Shown here piece after piece: positions 19,805 to 25,996 of a DNA stretch of 64,000 nucleotides. The position numbers and the translations under genes are program-made. Source of the DNA: Escherichia coli (GTDB lineage: Bacteria > Pseudomonadota > Gammaproteobacteria > Enterobacterales > Enterobacteriaceae); the NCBI RefSeq assembly GCF_050320075.1, contig NZ_CP190018.1; one strand, written 5' to 3'. Positions within the stretch are counted from its first letter, which is position 1. Each line of letters begins with the position of its first letter. The notes under the pieces are model-generated. The model was not told the origin of the DNA, did not search any database, and saw only the letters and a list, made by a program, of their open reading frames with translations.

Positions 19805-19908
19805 GGTGAACAGTGGTGAACAGACGGTGAACAGTCATTACTGCGATTGTTCACCCTTTAACTTACTGTATTACTTATCTTTTTTCTTATGGTGAACAGA
19901 GGTGAACA
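19805..19908. other. ori-like iteron cluster: six copies of the TGTTCACC octamer (either strand) in about 105 bp
   Basis: GGTGAACA at 19805, 19815, 19826, 19891, 19901 and TGTTCACC at 19849; about 5 kb from the crr-like repeats. Confidence 0.65.
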
Positions 19909-19987
19909 GTAAAATATAAAAAAACAAACAGTAAGCCGGTTTTTCCTGCGACCTTTTCCTGGCTTGCCGGTCTGAGGATGAGTCTCC

Positions 19988-20005
19988 TGTGTCAGGACTG
20001 GCACA
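19988..20005 (+). promoter_or_regulatory. Candidate Ogr/Delta activator site (TGT-N12-ACA) of a P2/P4-type late promoter upstream of sid
   Basis: TGTgtcaggactggcACA centred about 80 bp upstream of the sid ATG. Confidence 0.5.
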
Positions 20006-20077
20006 TCTGCAATGCGTCGTGTTGTTGTCCGGTGTACGTCACAATTTTCTTAACCTGAAGTGACGAGGAGCCGGAAA

Positions 20078-20812
20078 ATGTCTGACAACACCATCCCTGA
20101 ATATCTGCAACCCGCACTGGCACAACTGGAAAAGGCCAGAGCCGCCCACCTTGAGAACGCCCGCCTGATGGATGAGACCGTCACGGCCATTGAACGGGCA
20201 GAGCAGGAAAAAAATGCGCTGGCGCAGGCCGACGGAAACGACGCTGACGACTGGCGCACGGCCTTTCGTGCAGCCGGTGGTGTCCTGAGCGATGAGCTGA
20301 AACAGCGCCACATTGAGCGCGTGGCACGCCGGGAGCTGGTACAGGAATATGACAATCTGGCCGTGGTGCTGAATTTTGAACGTGAACGCCTGAAAGGGGC
20401 GTGTGACAGCACGGCCACCGCCTACCGGAAGGCACATCATCACCTTCTGAGTCTGTATGCAGAGAATGAGCTGGAACACGCCCTGAATGAAACCTGTGAG
20501 GCGCTTGTCCGGGCAATGCATCTGAGTATCCTGGTACAGGAAAATCCGCTCGCCAACACCACCGGCCATCAGGGCTACGTCGCACCCGATAAAGCTGTCA
20601 TGCAGCAGGTGAAATCATCGCTGGAACAGAAAATTAAACAGATGCAAATCAGCCTCAGCGGTGAGCCGGTTCTCCGGCTGGCAGGACTGTCAGCGGCAAC
20701 ACTCCCGCACATGGATTATGAGGTGGCAGGCACACCGGCACAGCGCAAGGTGTGGCAGGACAAAATAGACCAGCAGGGAGCAGAGCTTAAGGCCAGAGGG
20801 CTGCTGTCATGA
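20078..20812 (+). CDS. sid: Sid-like capsid size determination (external scaffold) protein, 244 aa
   Basis: Starts MSDNTIPEYLQPALAQLEKARAAHLENARLMDE; 244 aa from the ATG at 20078 (RBS GAGGAG) equals P4 Sid as recalled; followed by delta and psu. The ORF-track start at 20060 is six codons too far upstream. Confidence 0.75.
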   Translation: MSDNTIPEYLQPALAQLEKARAAHLENARLMDETVTAIERAEQEKNALAQADGNDADDWRTAFRAAGGVLSDELKQRHIERVARRELVQEYDNLAVVLNFERERLKGACDSTATAYRKAHHHLLSLYAENELEHALNETCEALVRAMHLSILVQENPLANTTGHQGYVAPDKAVMQQVKSSLEQKIKQMQISLSGEPVLRLAGLSAATLPHMDYEVAGTPAQRKVWQDKIDQQGAELKARGLLS

Positions 20813-21054
20813 TGCGCTGCCCTTTCTGTCGTCATTCAGCGCATACCCGCACCAGCCGGTATGTGAGTGACAATGTCAAAGAAAGTTATCTGCAGTGCCA
20901 GAATATTTACTGTTCGGCGACATTTAAAACGCATGAGTCAATTTGTGCCGTGATTCGTTCTCCGGTCACGGAGGAAAAACCAGCACCGGCAAGCACAGCA
21001 CCGGCTGTTGTCCGAAAAGTTAAAGGCTGTTACAGCTCACCATTCAACCATTAA
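20809..21054 (+). CDS. Ogr/Delta-family zinc-finger late-gene transcription activator (81 aa, single domain)
   Basis: C-X2-C-X22-C-X4-C pattern (CPFC ... CQNIYC); start overlaps the sid stop (ATGA). Confidence 0.75.
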   Translation: MMRCPFCRHSAHTRTSRYVSDNVKESYLQCQNIYCSATFKTHESICAVIRSPVTEEKPAPASTAPAVVRKVKGCYSSPFNH

Positions 21055-21068
21055 TCAGGAGACGGGGT

Positions 21069-21641
21069 GTGACCACAATGTCATTACAGCAGGCTTTTGA
21101 GGTCTGCCAGAATAACAAAGCGGCATGGCTGCAACGCAAAAATGAGCTGGCTGCAGCCGAACAGGAATATCTGCGGCTTCTGTCCGGGGAAGGCAGAAAC
21201 GTCAGCCGCCTGGACGAATTACGCAATATTATCGAAGTCAGAAAATGGCAGGTGAATCAGGCCGCCGGTCGTTATATTCGTTCGCATGAAGCCGTTCAGC
21301 ACATCAGCATCCGCGAGCGGCTGAATGATTTTATGCAGCAGCACGGCACAGCACTGGCGGCCGCACTGGCACCGGAGCTGATGGGCTACAGTGAGCTGAC
21401 GGCCATTGCCCGAAACTGTGCCATACAGCGTGCCACAGATGCCCTGCGTGAAGCCCTTCTGTCCTGGCTTGCGAAGGGGGAAAAAATTAATTATTCCGCG
21501 CAGGATAGCGACATTTTAACGACCATCGGATTCAGGCCTGACGCGGCTTCGGTGGATGACAACCGTGAAAAATTCACCCCTGCGCAGAACATGATTTTTT
21601 CGCGTAAAAGTGCGCAACTGGCATCACGTCAGTCTGTGTAA
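21069..21641 (+). CDS. psu: Psu-like protein (polarity suppression / capsid decoration), 190 aa
   Basis: 190 aa as for P4 Psu; sequence (QQAFEVCQNNKAAWLQRKNELAAAEQEYLRLLSGEGRNVSRLDELRN) matches my recollection of Psu; last gene of the sid-delta-psu block. Confidence 0.75.
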   Translation: MTTMSLQQAFEVCQNNKAAWLQRKNELAAAEQEYLRLLSGEGRNVSRLDELRNIIEVRKWQVNQAAGRYIRSHEAVQHISIRERLNDFMQQHGTALAAALAPELMGYSELTAIARNCAIQRATDALREALLSWLAKGEKINYSAQDSDILTTIGFRPDAASVDDNREKFTPAQNMIFSRKSAQLASRQSV

Positions 21642-21805
21642 AATTCCCCGAAAATCCGCCCGTTTTTACTGAAAAAAGCCATGCATCGATAAGGTGCATG
21701 GCTTTGCATGCGTTTTCCTGCCTCATTTTCTGCAGACCGCGCCATTCCCGGCGCGGTCTGAGCGTGTCAGTGCAACTGCATTAAAACCGCCCCGCAAAGC
21801 GGGCG

Positions 21806-21842: not shown

Positions 21843-24563
21843 TTATTTGTAATTATTTATTATCTCTTCAATCTTCAAAAGTGCTTGTGAGAAATCACTT
21901 AATTTCCGTGTGTTGACTATATAGCGTAATAAACCTCTGATTGTCTCTGCTTCTGAGTTAAATCTAAATCCTTTATAGTTTTCAACAAGCTTGGATACTT
22001 TCTCAGGAAGATTGTCATAGCTGTCTGAAATCTCTGATGCTAATAAAAATAATTCAAATTTAATCTTTCTTTCTTCATTGAAATCAGTTGTGGAAATATT
22101 TTTGATAAATGATTTTATTTTATCTCTATTCTTTTCTGTTGATATTCTGTACAGATCATATAGTATTGTTTCAGCAGCTCTTGCTTTATCTGTATTCGGA
22201 TAAGAACTAATTTCATGAAGTAATTTATCGACCTTGCTGTCGTCTTCTATATTAACGCCCAGTTTTTTGGCTACTGAAAAAATATTAGCAAGGCCTCTAT
22301 TGACTATAGCTATCACCTCATACCTACCAAGGTTTCTACTTATTAACTTATCGAGAATCGTGTATATTAAAGTTTTTATGCTGTCAGTGGATAAAGTTTC
22401 ACTGTGGGTGTTGTACCTTATAACGACATATTCGGAAATAGCATCATAGAATGCTAGGTTGTGGTATGAGGACTTTAAAGTGTCGTTTAATGTTTTTAAT
22501 ACTACCGCGTCTTGCTCTGTGGTTATTTTCATTAAAGATAGTAGTTTTAATGCGTTGATTAACTTTCCTTCTATAGGGTTGAGAAACGTAGCGAACTTGC
22601 TATATGACTTCGCTAGGTTTTGCAGTACAGTATTTATTAACCAATCTAATTCTTTGGGTTGAACAGACAGCGATAATAGTTTTTTATCTTCTTTCCTTAG
22701 TATAAGAGATAGGGTTTTATTATCAATGTATTTAATGCATGAATATAATTCTAATCTTGTTAGAGAAATCTCGTCTTTATCAGAATCCTTGATTATTTTT
22801 ATTTCAATGAATTTGCGAATCACATCCTTGAATTCTTTATAAACATCAATTAAACATCCATTTTTTACAACAAAAATTATAAGGTTTTCGAAAAGAAATT
22901 CCGTTTTATGAAGATCCCCGTCAACTAATAACTTTGTATTTCTTTTTCTTATATCGCTATACTTTGTTAATAATGAGCTAACGGTGTAGTGAAGATTTAA
23001 TAAATAATTAAAGGTTACTAAATCATAGATTACGGAGACGGTTTTTTTTATATTTCTCGGTAAGTTATCATATAATTCATGAATTTTATTCTCCTCAAGA
23101 GTTGAGTATCTTTCTCTATTAATTGAAAAATCATACTTCAATCTATTCAAAATAATATTTTGATTGAAAAGCGATATGAGAATATTTGCATAGTCCTTTT
23201 GTCTGATCTCTTCTGATAATTCCTCCTCTATAATACTGTAAGCCTCATCGTATTTATTTAACTGGAAGCAATTATATTTCTTAGTCTTGTCTATACTATT
23301 TGCAACCTTATGGGGGCGTGTATAGGTAACTATTTCGTTATAGTTGAAATTAATTTCCTTATCTATTTTAATTAATGAATCATTTGGTAGCACTTCAGTA
23401 ATCAGTAGCACTTCATCATGTTTATCGTTTAAAACAATACCATATATACTTGCTTTTTTTAATATAAAAAATAATTTTTGGAGATGCGGCTTATAGTCTT
23501 TAACTTTTTTATCATTACTGAGTATACTCAAAAACTTCTTATAAAATCCTCTTAGCTCTATATTATTATCATTAGAGGTTACTTCGGTGTCATAAAATTG
23601 CAATAAAGCTTTTGGTCCATTGTCATCAATATACATTAAACCGCAATTAGTGAAACATCTGGTAACTTGTTCAGCAAGTATTGCATTTAACGATTGAAGA
23701 GATCTCACTCTTGAATAAATAGCATTAATTATTTCGATATCATCTAAGTCTGCACATAGTTCTAGGCTATTTAGGCTATGCAGGAAAGTATATAACTTGT
23801 TTGAATATGAATTGTTATTGAAAGGTTTGATTGTTTCATCGGTTAAAATAATAGTGGTTATACCATGACTTTCAAGATATTTTCTTTGAGCAGGAATATC
23901 TTCGAATACTACTAAATACATAGGGGGTCTAACAGATGAATGATTCTGAGTCCATTTAATTATTTGCTTTAGATCTATATCATTATATGAATACCCCAAA
24001 AATAGCACAGTATGGGTGGAAATAACACTTTTAACATAATTTTCAATTAAGGGAAAATTGAAGCTATAATTTAAGTAATCATCTTCTTTAAAGACGATGT
24101 TGTGATTTTTAAAATCACCATGCATTTTTATCAATTTTTTGCCAAGGTAAGATTTCATCAAATCTTTGTCACTGCTTATTATATTATAAAAGTAAGATTT
24201 GGCATTTATAGCTGCTTCAAGCAAAGTGTCCCAATTCGTTGTGATAACAGAGTGAGGATTCAGTTTAAATATTAGATCGTGAATCTTTGAATGGGGAACA
24301 TTTTCAGGAAAGAAATCTTTGATTCTTTTGTAGTAAAGATGCTCACCAAATGTGAGGTAATAAAGCTGTGCTATTTTTAAATAATCTGATTCATCTTTGA
24401 TATTGAGATCTGAAATGAGAGTGTCAATTAAGTCCCCCCATGAAGGCATTTTGATAGTTTTTGTTTCAGAGGATTTTGAAACACCAGCCCCTACAAAAAT
24501 AGCTAAAGACTCCTCATCTTTTGCTCTTAAAATACTAGCTATATGTTTGTTTAGCAAATCCAT
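21843..24563 (-). CDS. Cargo gene in the satellite cos-int slot: 906-aa protein with N-terminal SIR2-like domain and long helical C-terminal region; candidate antiphage NAD+-depleting defence protein (DSR-like)
   Basis: N-terminal motifs FVGAGVS, VITTNWD, KMHGDF, LFLGYSYNDIDL resemble SIR2_2-type domains; the remaining ~650 aa are low-complexity helical repeats. Strongly AT-rich relative to the prophage backbone. Sits between cos and int. Confidence 0.55.
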   Translation of the reverse strand: MDLLNKHIASILRAKDEESLAIFVGAGVSKSSETKTIKMPSWGDLIDTLISDLNIKDESDYLKIAQLYYLTFGEHLYYKRIKDFFPENVPHSKIHDLIFKLNPHSVITTNWDTLLEAAINAKSYFYNIISSDKDLMKSYLGKKLIKMHGDFKNHNIVFKEDDYLNYSFNFPLIENYVKSVISTHTVLFLGYSYNDIDLKQIIKWTQNHSSVRPPMYLVVFEDIPAQRKYLESHGITTIILTDETIKPFNNNSYSNKLYTFLHSLNSLELCADLDDIEIINAIYSRVRSLQSLNAILAEQVTRCFTNCGLMYIDDNGPKALLQFYDTEVTSNDNNIELRGFYKKFLSILSNDKKVKDYKPHLQKLFFILKKASIYGIVLNDKHDEVLLITEVLPNDSLIKIDKEINFNYNEIVTYTRPHKVANSIDKTKKYNCFQLNKYDEAYSIIEEELSEEIRQKDYANILISLFNQNIILNRLKYDFSINRERYSTLEENKIHELYDNLPRNIKKTVSVIYDLVTFNYLLNLHYTVSSLLTKYSDIRKRNTKLLVDGDLHKTEFLFENLIIFVVKNGCLIDVYKEFKDVIRKFIEIKIIKDSDKDEISLTRLELYSCIKYIDNKTLSLILRKEDKKLLSLSVQPKELDWLINTVLQNLAKSYSKFATFLNPIEGKLINALKLLSLMKITTEQDAVVLKTLNDTLKSSYHNLAFYDAISEYVVIRYNTHSETLSTDSIKTLIYTILDKLISRNLGRYEVIAIVNRGLANIFSVAKKLGVNIEDDSKVDKLLHEISSYPNTDKARAAETILYDLYRISTEKNRDKIKSFIKNISTTDFNEERKIKFELFLLASEISDSYDNLPEKVSKLVENYKGFRFNSEAETIRGLLRYIVNTRKLSDFSQALLKIEEIINNYK

Positions 24564-24575
24564 TGTATATACCTC

Positions 24576-25739
24576 TCAATATAATTTATCTGAATACCAT
24601 TGCATCATTTTTTTTCTATGTTCAAGATATTGAGCATGATTGTAAGTCCCTCGGATTCTGTTTTTATCAACATGTGCCAATTGTATTTCAATCCATGCGC
24701 TATCAAACCCTTGTTCGTGCAATATTGTCGACATGGTATGCCGAAAACCGTGACCTGTAGCACGGCCTTTGTAGCCAATTAACTCAATCACTTGTGAAAC
24801 ACTTTCTTTTGAGATTGGCTTGCTGCGGTTGTTCCTGCCAATAAAGATGTAAGGGTAATGGCCGGTAATAGGTTTGAGCTGTTTGAAAAGGTCAACTACC
24901 TGAGTAGATAAAGGAACAATGTGAGGTCTACGCATTTTCATACGTTCCGCTGGTATCTCCCATATACCTTTTTCGAGGTCTACTTCTTCCCACGTAGCAA
25001 AGCGCATCTCCTGCGTTCTTACACCAGTCAGCATGACTATCTTCGTAGCATTTTTGGTGATGATGCTACCGGTATACGCTTCAAGATCTCGAATAAAATG
25101 AGGCAACTCTTCAGCGGATAAAAATGGATGGTGTTTTTGCTTGGGAACGGCCAGAGCGATAGCTAAATCAGGTGCAGGATTGTACTCAGCACGGCCAGTT
25201 ATGATTGCATAGCGATAAACCTCACCGCATCTTTGACGCACCTTGCGTGTTTTCTCTAGTGCTCCACGTTTTTCGATTCGTCGTAATACTTCAAGCAGTT
25301 CTAATGGTTTGATTTCACTGATAGGACGTTTACCAATGAACGGGAAGACATCTTGCTCGAATGTCTTAATGATTTCTTCTCGATAGGCCACAGTCCAGCG
25401 GTCAGCTTTGTTGGTATGCCATTCTCGACATATTGCTTCGAAAGAATTTTCTGTTGATAGCTTTTGGGCGAGTCTTAAAGCTTTGCGTTCCTCTACCGGG
25501 TCAATGCCATTAGCAACCTGCTTACGGGCGATATCACGCTTCTCACGTGCTTCTGCGAGGCTTACTAAATCGTAGCTGCCAAATGACATTAACCGCGCTT
25601 TCCCTGCAAACCGGAAACGGAAACGCCAGCCTTTCGAGCCATCGGGATTGATAAGCAATGACAGACCTTGTCCATCGTTCAATGTGTATGGCTTGTCTTG
25701 TGGTTTTGCACGTTTGATCTGTATATCGGTGAGAGCCAT
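24576..25739 (-). CDS. int: P4-family tyrosine integrase (387 aa)
   Basis: N-terminal MALTDIQIKRAKP...GKARLMSFGSYDLVSLAEAREKR and C-terminal catalytic region (HGFRHTMSTILHEQG ... RGTYNH); adjacent to the tRNA target. Confidence 0.9.
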   Translation of the reverse strand: MALTDIQIKRAKPQDKPYTLNDGQGLSLLINPDGSKGWRFRFRFAGKARLMSFGSYDLVSLAEAREKRDIARKQVANGIDPVEERKALRLAQKLSTENSFEAICREWHTNKADRWTVAYREEIIKTFEQDVFPFIGKRPISEIKPLELLEVLRRIEKRGALEKTRKVRQRCGEVYRYAIITGRAEYNPAPDLAIALAVPKQKHHPFLSAEELPHFIRDLEAYTGSIITKNATKIVMLTGVRTQEMRFATWEEVDLEKGIWEIPAERMKMRRPHIVPLSTQVVDLFKQLKPITGHYPYIFIGRNNRSKPISKESVSQVIELIGYKGRATGHGFRHTMSTILHEQGFDSAWIEIQLAHVDKNRIRGTYNHAQYLEHRKKMMQWYSDKLY

Positions 25740-25901
25740 GTGTATAACTGAAAACTACTTATAAAAAATCTATACACATTACTATACATATTTTTCGCGG
25801 ATTTAGGGAGACGATCTCGGACTGTTACGGATAAGATGATTATTCATCATATTGAATATAAAGGGTTTTATGGATCATCTCGGAACTGGCTGGATGAAGT
25901 T

Positions 25902-25996
25902 TGGCGGAAGATCACAGGAGTCGAACCTGCCCGGGACCGCTGGCGGCCCCAACTGGATTTGAAGTCCAGCCGCCTCACCGGAGACGACGATCTTCC
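25902..25996 (-). tRNA. selC: tRNA-Sec (selenocysteine tRNA), intact, 95 nt
   Basis: Reverse complement matches my recollection of E. coli selC from GGAAGATCGTCGTCTCC... to ...GATCTTCCGCCA. Confidence 0.95.

What the first reader, a model, noticed from the sequence alone, without database searches (positions are those of the whole stretch)
19988..20005. Ogr/Delta-type activator site upstream of sid
TGT-N12-ACA (TGTgtcaggactggcACA) lies about 80 bp upstream of the sid ATG, the dyad recognised by P2 Ogr / P4 Delta at late promoters. Helper-phage activators could therefore switch on sid-delta-psu here.
Basis: partly seen in the sequence, partly recalled or inferred. Interest (0 to 1): 0.35.

Follow-up and report, generated by a model that had tools for sequence, protein, structure and literature searches.

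The report
Known P4 sid late-promoter activator site
The 18-base dyad is the well-known docking site for helper-phage (Ogr) and satellite (Delta) activators in front of the sid-delta-psu operon of a P4-type satellite prophage in E. coli, so it is real but ordinary.

Summary
TGTGTCAGGACTGGCACA (TGT-N12-ACA) lies at 19988-20005, with its centre 81.5 nt upstream of the sid ATG (20078).

The bare motif is not enriched in the window (19 found, 14.7 expected). Its context is what decides the case. The window is the E. coli SMS-3-5 chromosome. It carries an 11.3-kb P4-type satellite integrated at selC (att repeats at 14634-14672 and 25893-25931). Window 14794-20931 is 96.9% identical to P4.

The sid-upstream region matches P4's Psid except for one central spacer base (A19997, G in P4).

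Sixteen diverged sid loci from six other genera are only about 67% identical upstream. All keep TGT-N12-ACA at -90/-91 from the sid ATG. The outer TGTG and CACA are invariant and the inner spacer varies freely.

P2's annotated activator sites have the same form, TGT-N12-(A/C)CA, centred about -55.5 to -57.5. The same geometry here predicts a start near A20052, downstream of a conserved CAnAAT -10. No sigma-70-like promoter (-35 plus -10) was found.

This is the already known Psid -55 site.

The parts
19988..20005 (.). Activator dyad TGTGTCAGGACTGGCACA (TGT-N12-ACA). It is the presumed -55 Ogr/Delta binding site of Psid.
   Evidence: 17/18 identical to P4 record positions 9493-9510. Present at -90/-91 from the sid ATG in all 16 diverged loci, with TGTG and CACA invariant.
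20026..20043 (.). Second perfect TGT-N12-ACA (TGTCCGGTGTACGTCACA), centred about -17.5 from the predicted start and overlapping the -10-like hexamer. Candidate second Delta site.
   Evidence: identical in P4. In diverged relatives it reads TGT-N12-AGA. That P4 late promoters carry a second Delta footprint is my recollection of Julien & Calendar 1995, which I could not retrieve.
20017..20028 (+). Conserved block TCGTGTTGTTGT, at about -35 to -24. Not a canonical -35; role unknown.
   Evidence: 10 of 12 columns invariant in 18 unique sequences.
20040..20045 (+). -10-like hexamer CACAAT (CAGAAT in diverged relatives).
   Evidence: 5 of 6 columns invariant. No sigma-70-type -35/-10 pair is found anywhere in 19400-20200.
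20052..20053 (+). Predicted Psid transcription start (A), inferred rather than mapped.
   Evidence: Dyad start plus 64 nt, as at P2 PO and PP where the starts are annotated. It lies 7 nt after the -10-like hexamer.
20065..20070 (+). Shine-Dalgarno GAGGAG of sid.
   Evidence: The GAGGA core is invariant in all relatives.
20078..20812 (+). sid, capsid size-determination scaffold, 244 aa.
   Evidence: Aligned with the P4 sid CDS. Homologs found.
20809..21054 (+). delta, an 81-aa single-domain Ogr/Delta zinc-finger activator with the CX2CX22CX4C motif.
   Evidence: Pfam PF04606, E 1.4e-18. 47% identical to P2 Ogr. 51% identical to the first domain of the 166-aa P4 Delta.
21069..21641 (+). psu, polarity suppression and capsid decoration protein.
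   Evidence: Pfam PF07455, E 1.7e-88. 97.5% identical to P4 DNA.
19628..19645 (-). Candidate activator dyad of the divergent late promoter PLL. On the minus strand it reads TGTAAGGCTGCCGGAACA, upstream of vis (19259-19525).
   Evidence: With the conserved CAAAAT at 19593-19588 as the -10, the dyad centre again falls near -55.5. In diverged relatives only the 5' TGT stays in register, and the spacing becomes N11 or N13.

Best explanation
The dyad at 19988-20005 is the upstream activator site of Psid. Psid is the late promoter of the sid-delta-psu operon of a P4-family satellite prophage integrated at selC in E. coli SMS-3-5. Psid has no usable -35 and only a weak -10 (CACAAT), so it should be silent on its own. 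A small zinc-finger activator of the Ogr/Delta family binds the TGT/ACA half-sites about 55 bp upstream of the start and recruits RNA polymerase; by established knowledge of P2 this occurs through the alpha subunit. The activator can come from a P2-like helper (Ogr) or from the satellite itself (the 81-aa Delta encoded in the same operon). Helper infection or induction would therefore switch the operon on, and Delta would then reinforce it and trans-activate the helper's late genes. Shown here: the sequence, its orthology to P4 Psid, its conservation and its geometry. Inferred: binding, the transcription start and activation.
For: Sequence and position. The region 19520-20100 is 98% identical to P4, the dyad is 17/18 identical, and over window 19900-20085 that spacer base is the only difference. 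The element as a whole is P4-like: window 14794-20931 equals P4 4291-10436 at 96.9%, and window 21084-21805 equals P4 10903-11624 at 97.5%. It is bounded by att repeats at the 3' end of tRNA-Sec. The P2 record annotates activator binding sites and late starts. Within them, TGT-N12-(A/C)CA, or TGT-N11-ACA at PV, is centred -55.5 to -57.5, and the PO half-site TGTGTCAG is identical to the one here. Sixteen sid loci from Mangrovibacter, Cedecea, Citrobacter, Enterobacter, Raoultella and Superficieibacter are 66-70% identical upstream. All keep TGT-N12-ACA at -90/-91 from the ATG. The outer TGTG and CACA are invariant in 8 of 8 columns, the inner spacer in 0 of 4, and the 200 upstream columns as a whole in 52%. 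No sigma-70-like promoter was found in 19400-20200. A cognate activator gene is present. Literature: TGT-N12-ACA with Ogr dependence of the P2 late promoters (PMC3931495), and Ogr trans-activation of P4 delta, psu and sid (PMC7552001).
Against: There are no transcript or binding data for this element. The start site and the -55 placement are inferred by analogy and from a conserved -10-like hexamer. The bare motif is not enriched in the window. The primary papers on Psid (Dale 1986, Van Bokkelen 1991, Julien & Calendar 1995/1996) are not in the library, so the statement that this exact P4 site was footprinted and mutated rests on my knowledge. The Delta here is a single-domain protein only about 51% identical to P4 Delta, so its affinity for this site is untested. 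The diverged sequences fall into about six lineages, so the conservation counts are fewer independent events than sequences.
Confidence: 0.9

Rival explanations
1. The motif is a chance occurrence with no function, and sid-delta-psu is driven from elsewhere.
For: TGT-N12-ACA occurs 19 times in the window against 14.7 expected, which is not significant.
Against: The half-sites are invariant at the same offset from sid in 16 loci whose flanks are only about 67% identical, while the inner spacer varies. The site is identical in position to P4's. Only 4 of 182 possible 18-nt frames in the upstream region show 8/8 invariant outer bases.
Confidence: 0.02
2. The dyad is conserved because another protein binds it (CRP, P4 Vis, or the alpha replication protein as part of ori), not an Ogr/Delta activator.
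For: TGTG...CACA resembles CRP half-sites. The P4 record's 'origin of DNA replication' span (9086-9809) formally covers this position. vis is encoded just upstream.
Against: The CRP consensus is TGTGA-N6-TCACA. Here TGTGN and NCACA are 8 nt apart, so the spacing fails (direct reading). The alpha-binding iterons GGTGAACAG end at 19910, about 80 bp upstream, and the dyad bears no resemblance to them. The same dyad form is annotated as the activator site at P2 late promoters, which have no ori or Vis.
Confidence: 0.05
3. The site is an intact relic in a defective prophage and is never used, because there is no compatible helper or the resident Delta does not recognise it.
For: No P2-like genes lie in this window (one search gives ORF context only). 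Delta differs strongly from P4 Delta.
Against: All core genes are full length: int, alpha, vis, sid, delta, psu. The att repeats, the cos-proximal end (P4 to position 11624) and ori/crr are intact. 81-aa deltas accompany the same dyad in diverged elements. About 19% of complete E. coli genomes carry this sid region at 95% identity or more, which suggests active spread.
Confidence: 0.03

Closest known systems
Bacteriophage P4 late promoter Psid (activator site at about -55)
   Same: Same gene context (vis - ori - Psid - sid - delta - psu). The dyad is 17/18 identical, and over window 19900-20085 that spacer base is the only difference. The second dyad at 20026-20043 is also identical.
   Different: One spacer base differs (A19997, G in P4), in the part of the spacer that varies freely among relatives. 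The operon's activator gene is an 81-aa single-domain delta instead of P4's 166-aa two-domain Delta. The element uses a selC integrase and carries a SIR2 gene in place of gop-beta-cII.
Bacteriophage P2 late promoters PP, PO, PV, PF (Ogr-dependent)
   Same: The dyad form is TGT-N12-(A/C)CA, centred -55.5 to -57.5 from the annotated starts. The PO half-site TGTGTCAG is identical. These promoters also lack a sigma-70 -35.
   Different: The P2 sites are imperfect (CCA or TGG in one half; N11 at PV), whereas this one is a perfect dyad. The sequence between the dyad and the -10 is unrelated. P2 promoters show no second dyad near -18.
Retronphage phiR73 (a P4-family satellite at selC with a single-domain Delta); from memory, not checked here
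   Same: Integration at selC and a short Ogr-sized delta are features I recall for phiR73. This element has both.
   Different: No phiR73 record was retrieved. This element carries a SIR2-domain gene, not a retron, in the variable region.

Membership tests
Ogr/Delta-dependent late promoter of P2/P4-type elements | Upstream element with the TGT-N12-ACA consensus | tested here: met
   Perfect match at 19988-20005. The consensus is as stated in PMC3931495 and as seen in the P2 annotated activator sites.
Ogr/Delta-dependent late promoter of P2/P4-type elements | Dyad centred about 55 bp upstream of the transcription start | tested here: inconclusive
   There are no transcript data. If the start is A20052, which is 7 nt after the conserved CACAAT, the centre is -55.5, the same as P2 PO and PP. 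This is inferred, not mapped.
Ogr/Delta-dependent late promoter of P2/P4-type elements | Poor match to sigma-70 -35/-10, so the promoter depends on an activator | tested here: met
   Zero sigma-70-like sites in 19400-20200 against 1.1 expected. Only a weak -10 (CACAAT) is present.
Ogr/Delta-dependent late promoter of P2/P4-type elements | Drives a late (morphogenetic or helper-exploitation) operon | tested here: met
   sid, delta and psu lie immediately downstream.
Ogr/Delta-dependent late promoter of P2/P4-type elements | A cognate C4 zinc-finger activator (CX2CX22CX4C) is available | tested here: met
   The 81-aa delta matches PF04606 at E 1.4e-18, has cysteines at positions 4, 7, 30 and 35, and is 47% identical to P2 Ogr. 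Whether a helper ogr is present in the genome was not checked.
Ogr/Delta-dependent late promoter of P2/P4-type elements | Activator binding to the dyad, and activator-dependent transcription | not testable with these tools
   This needs a footprint or EMSA, reporter assays and 5' RACE.
P4 Psid ortholog | Sequence orthology and synteny with P4 record positions 9493-9510 | tested here: met
   98% identity over 581 bp and the same gene order.
P4 Psid ortholog | Half-sites under purifying selection across P4-like satellites | tested here: met
   All 16 diverged loci keep the dyad at -90/-91. TGTG and CACA are 8/8 invariant and the inner spacer 0/4.
CRP binding site | TGTGA-N6-TCACA spacing | tested here: not met
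   The corresponding pentamers here are 8 nt apart (TGTGT-N8-GCACA), read directly.

The most novel reading that the evidence does not exclude
Psid in P4-like satellites may hold more than the textbook -55 dyad. Two further blocks are as conserved across genera as the dyad: 19942-19969 (TTTCCTGCGACCTTTTCCTGGC..., about -110 to -83) and 20009-20028 (about -43 to -24). The perfect second dyad at about -18 is confined to the P4 clade. These could mark an undescribed extra regulator site (for example Vis, or a replication-transcription coupling element at the edge of ori). They could also reflect a clade-specific difference in how single-domain and double-domain Deltas engage the promoter.
Probability: 0.15. 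Interest if true: 0.3.

Novelty: already known. Interest (0 to 1): 0.08.

Why it matters
It matters little beyond correct annotation. The site marks the switch by which a P2-type helper, or the satellite's own Delta, turns on capsid-size redirection (sid), trans-activation (delta) and psu in a P4-type satellite. That satellite type is present in about one fifth of complete E. coli genomes. The cross-genus footprint (TGTG-yCA-N4-TG-sCACA at a fixed offset from sid) gives a practical signature for annotating Psid in P4-like elements, and a defined target for reporter constructs. It does not change the known model.

Tried and rejected
1. Enrichment of the bare motif. It is not significant, so I did not use it as evidence.

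2. Retrieval of the primary papers on Psid and Delta binding, by PubMed or PMC id and by full-text search. None are held. Only secondary statements could be cited.

3. The early X02534 annotation of a 'consensus -10' at the position of the dyad. I rejected it as a 1980s guess that does not fit the conserved CAnAAT further downstream.

4. A CRP-site reading. Rejected on spacing.

5. A search for a second copy of the conserved block 19942-19963 elsewhere in the window, as would be expected for a Vis- or Int-type box. None was found.

6. A test of whether the PLL dyad is equally conserved. It is not: only the 5' TGT keeps register, and the spacing becomes N11 or N13 in diverged relatives.

7. My own first labelling of the GGTGAACAG iterons as crr was wrong. 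The P4 record shows they are ori type-1 repeats, and crr is the 120-nt repeat pair after alpha.

Full report
**Observation.** The sequence at 19988-20005 is TGTGTCAGGACTGGCACA: TGT, twelve bases, ACA. The sid ATG is at 20078, so the site spans -90 to -73 from the ATG and its centre lies 81.5 nt upstream. The coordinates and description in the finding are correct. As a bare pattern the motif is not special. The window has 19 matches against 14.7 +/- 3.8 in shuffles. The motif alone would prove nothing.

**What the surroundings are.**
- The window is the E. coli SMS-3-5 chromosome (100% match).
- Between direct repeats at 14634-14672 and 25893-25931 lies an 11.3-kb P4-type satellite prophage. 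The second repeat overlaps the 3' end of tRNA-Sec at 25902-25996.
- Its genes are alpha primase-helicase (15140-17473, minus), DUF5375/ORF106 (17488-17808, minus), ORF151 (17944-18399, minus), the C4/isrK immunity RNAs (18924-19200, minus) and vis/AlpA (19259-19525, minus).
- These are followed by the P4 ori iterons GGTGAACAG (19805-19910), sid (20078-20812), delta (20809-21054), psu (21069-21641), a 906-aa SIR2-domain gene (21843-24563, minus) and a tyrosine integrase (24576-25739, minus).
- Window 14794-20931 aligns to P4 4291-10436 at 96.9%. Window 21084-21805 aligns to P4 10903-11624 (psu to the right cos end) at 97.5%.
- The 3' part of delta, the integrase and the gop-beta-cII segment are not P4-like.

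**Orthology of the site.** The 581 bp from the vis start to the first sid codons are 98% identical to P4. The dyad equals P4 record positions 9493-9510 except for one base in the centre of the spacer (A19997, G in P4). Over window 19900-20085 that is the only difference. The site is therefore the ortholog of the dyad in the P4 late promoter Psid. From my knowledge, not retrievable here, that P4 site was defined by mutation (Van Bokkelen et al. 1991) and by Delta footprinting (Julien & Calendar 1995). The library did not hold those papers.

**Comparison with annotated Ogr sites.**
- The P2 RefSeq record annotates activator binding sites and late transcription starts for PP, PO, PV and PF.
- Within those sites I find TGTGTCAGTGATAAGCCA (PO; read in reverse for PP) and TGTGCTGTCGATTAGCCA (PF), both TGT-N12-CCA. 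At PV I find TGTCTGGTAGTTCTACA (TGT-N11-ACA).
- Their centres lie -55.5 to -57.5 from the annotated starts.
- The left half-site of PO, TGTGTCAG, is identical to the one here.
- A published genome paper states that the four P2 late promoters possess the consensus TGT-N12-ACA and depend on Ogr, a CX2CX22CX4C zinc-finger protein (PMC3931495).
- Another states that P2 Ogr trans-activates P4 expression of delta, psu and sid (PMC7552001).
- Applying the PO/PP geometry (dyad start plus 64) predicts a start at A20052. That is 7 nt after a -10-like CACAAT (20040-20045) and 26 nt before the ATG.
- A consensus scan finds no sigma-70-type -35/-10 pair anywhere in 19400-20200, as expected for an activator-dependent promoter.

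**Independent evidence from conservation.**
- A Sid profile recovered 17 loci in one-genome-per-species contigs. Sixteen are diverged (Sid 58-64% identical). They come from Mangrovibacter, Cedecea, Citrobacter, Enterobacter, Raoultella and Superficieibacter. One further diverged E. coli locus came, and its upstream sequence is identical to one of these.
- Their 200 nt upstream of sid are only 66-70% identical to the window.
- Every one has TGT-N12-ACA starting at -90 or -91 from its sid ATG.
- In the alignment of 18 unique sequences, the outer TGTG and CACA are invariant in 8 of 8 columns. The four central spacer columns are all variable. Overall, 52% of upstream columns are invariant. Only 4 of 182 possible 18-nt frames show the 8/8 pattern.
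- The family consensus is TGTG-yCA-N4-TG-sCACA. That extended form occurs once without mismatch in the 64-kb window.
- The sequences represent roughly six lineages, so the number of independent events is modest, but the pattern is what a protein-binding dyad predicts.
- The base that differs from P4 lies in the freely varying centre.

**Mechanism.** The best-supported reading is the textbook one. Psid is weak on its own. An Ogr-family zinc-finger activator binds the half-sites near -55 and recruits RNA polymerase. The activator can be the helper's Ogr or the satellite's own Delta. Because delta sits inside the operon, activation is self-reinforcing. Delta here is an 81-aa single-domain protein (PF04606; cysteines at 4, 7, 30 and 35). 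It is 47% identical to P2 Ogr and 51% identical to the first domain of P4's 166-aa Delta. Diverged elements also encode 81-aa deltas. Sequence, orthology, conservation and geometry are shown. Binding, the start site and activation are inferred.

**Rivals.**
- Pure chance is excluded by conservation and orthology.
- A CRP site is excluded by spacing: TGTGN and NCACA are 8 nt apart here, not 6.
- Belonging to ori is unlikely. The alpha-binding iterons end about 80 bp upstream and look nothing like the dyad, although the P4 record's broad 'origin' span formally covers it.
- A silent relic in a dead element is unlikely. All core genes, the att repeats, ori/crr and the cos-proximal end are intact. 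In addition, 1027 of 5426 complete E. coli genomes match this sid region, 979 of them at 95% identity or more.

- A second perfect TGT-N12-ACA lies at 20026-20043, 38 bp downstream, centred about -17.5 and overlapping the -10. It is identical in P4 but reads TGT-N12-AGA in all diverged relatives. I recall that Delta footprints a second site in the P4 late promoters, but I could not verify this.
- A dyad at 19628-19645 lies upstream of vis on the minus strand. With the conserved CAAAAT (19593-19588) as the -10, its centre again falls near -55.5, which fits the divergent late promoter PLL. In diverged relatives only the 5' TGT keeps register.
- Two other blocks are as conserved as the dyad and are unexplained: 19942-19969 (22 of 28 columns invariant, no second copy in the window) and 20017-20028 (10 of 12 columns).

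**Verdict.** This is the already known Psid activator site in a P4-family satellite at selC. Interest is low. The only mildly open points are the extra conserved blocks and the clade-restricted second dyad.

Noticed in passing
window 20026-20043: A second perfect TGT-N12-ACA (TGTCCGGTGTACGTCACA) lies 38 bp downstream of the reported one and overlaps the -10-like hexamer. It is identical in P4 but reads TGT-N12-AGA in all diverged P4-like elements.
   Followed up: partly
window 19628-19645 (minus strand): TGT-N12-ACA upstream of vis, the candidate activator site of the divergent late promoter PLL, with a conserved CAAAAT -10 at 19593-19588. It has three spacer differences from P4. In diverged relatives the spacing is N11 or N13.
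   Followed up: partly
window 19942-19969: Block TTTCCTGCGACCTTTTCCTGGCTTGCCG between the ori iterons and the dyad is 22/28 invariant across six genera. It contains an imperfect direct repeat TTTTCCTG / TTTTCCTG 15 nt apart. There is no second copy in the window and its function is unknown.
   Followed up: partly
window 20009-20028: GCAA...TCGTGTTGTTGT, at about -43 to -24 of Psid, is nearly invariant across relatives but is not a canonical -35. Its role is unknown.
   Followed up: no
window 20809-21054, with breakpoints near 20931 and 21084: delta is an 81-aa single Ogr-like domain, not the 166-aa tandem-domain Delta of P4. Similarity to P4 DNA stops 122 nt into delta and resumes at psu, so the activator gene is a mosaic replacement inside an otherwise 97% P4-like late operon.
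   Followed up: partly
window 21843-24563 (minus): A 906-aa protein with an N-terminal SIR2_2 domain (Pfam E 4e-24; PADLOC ThsA-like STALD, E 4e-27) sits between cos and int, where P4 has gop-beta-cII. It is a likely anti-phage defence cargo in the satellite's variable hotspot. The C-terminal ~650 aa have no match.
   Followed up: partly
window 14634-14672 and 25893-25931; tRNA-Sec 25902-25996 (minus): Direct repeats (85% over 39 nt, core TTTGGCGGAAGATCACAGGAGTC) bound the 11.3-kb element. Integration is at selC rather than P4's leuX, with a 387-aa integrase that has no P4 DNA similarity.
   Followed up: partly
window 18924-19200 (minus): Rfam hits C4 antisense RNA (76 bits), isrK (71 bits) and c4-a1b1 (51 bits). 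This is the P4 CI RNA immunity system with its target sites, and it is intact.
   Followed up: no
window 19805-19910 and 14792-15094: P4 ori type-1 iterons (GGTGAACAG, six copies, one inverted) lie just upstream of Psid. The crr 120-nt direct repeat pair lies after alpha. Both match the P4 annotation.
   Followed up: partly
L006 (URND01000141.1) and annotation names: A contig labelled 'uncultured Clostridiales bacterium' carries a sid region 99% identical to the E. coli/P4 one, which probably reflects mis-binning or contamination. Sid homologs are widely mis-named 'glycoprotein 3', and the P4 RefSeq record labels Sid as 'polarity suppression Psu-like'.
   Followed up: no
window about 14420-14585 (L005 993-1154): RefSeq annotates a truncated rhuM pseudogene between setC and the satellite's att repeat. 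It is possibly a remnant of an earlier island at selC.
   Followed up: no
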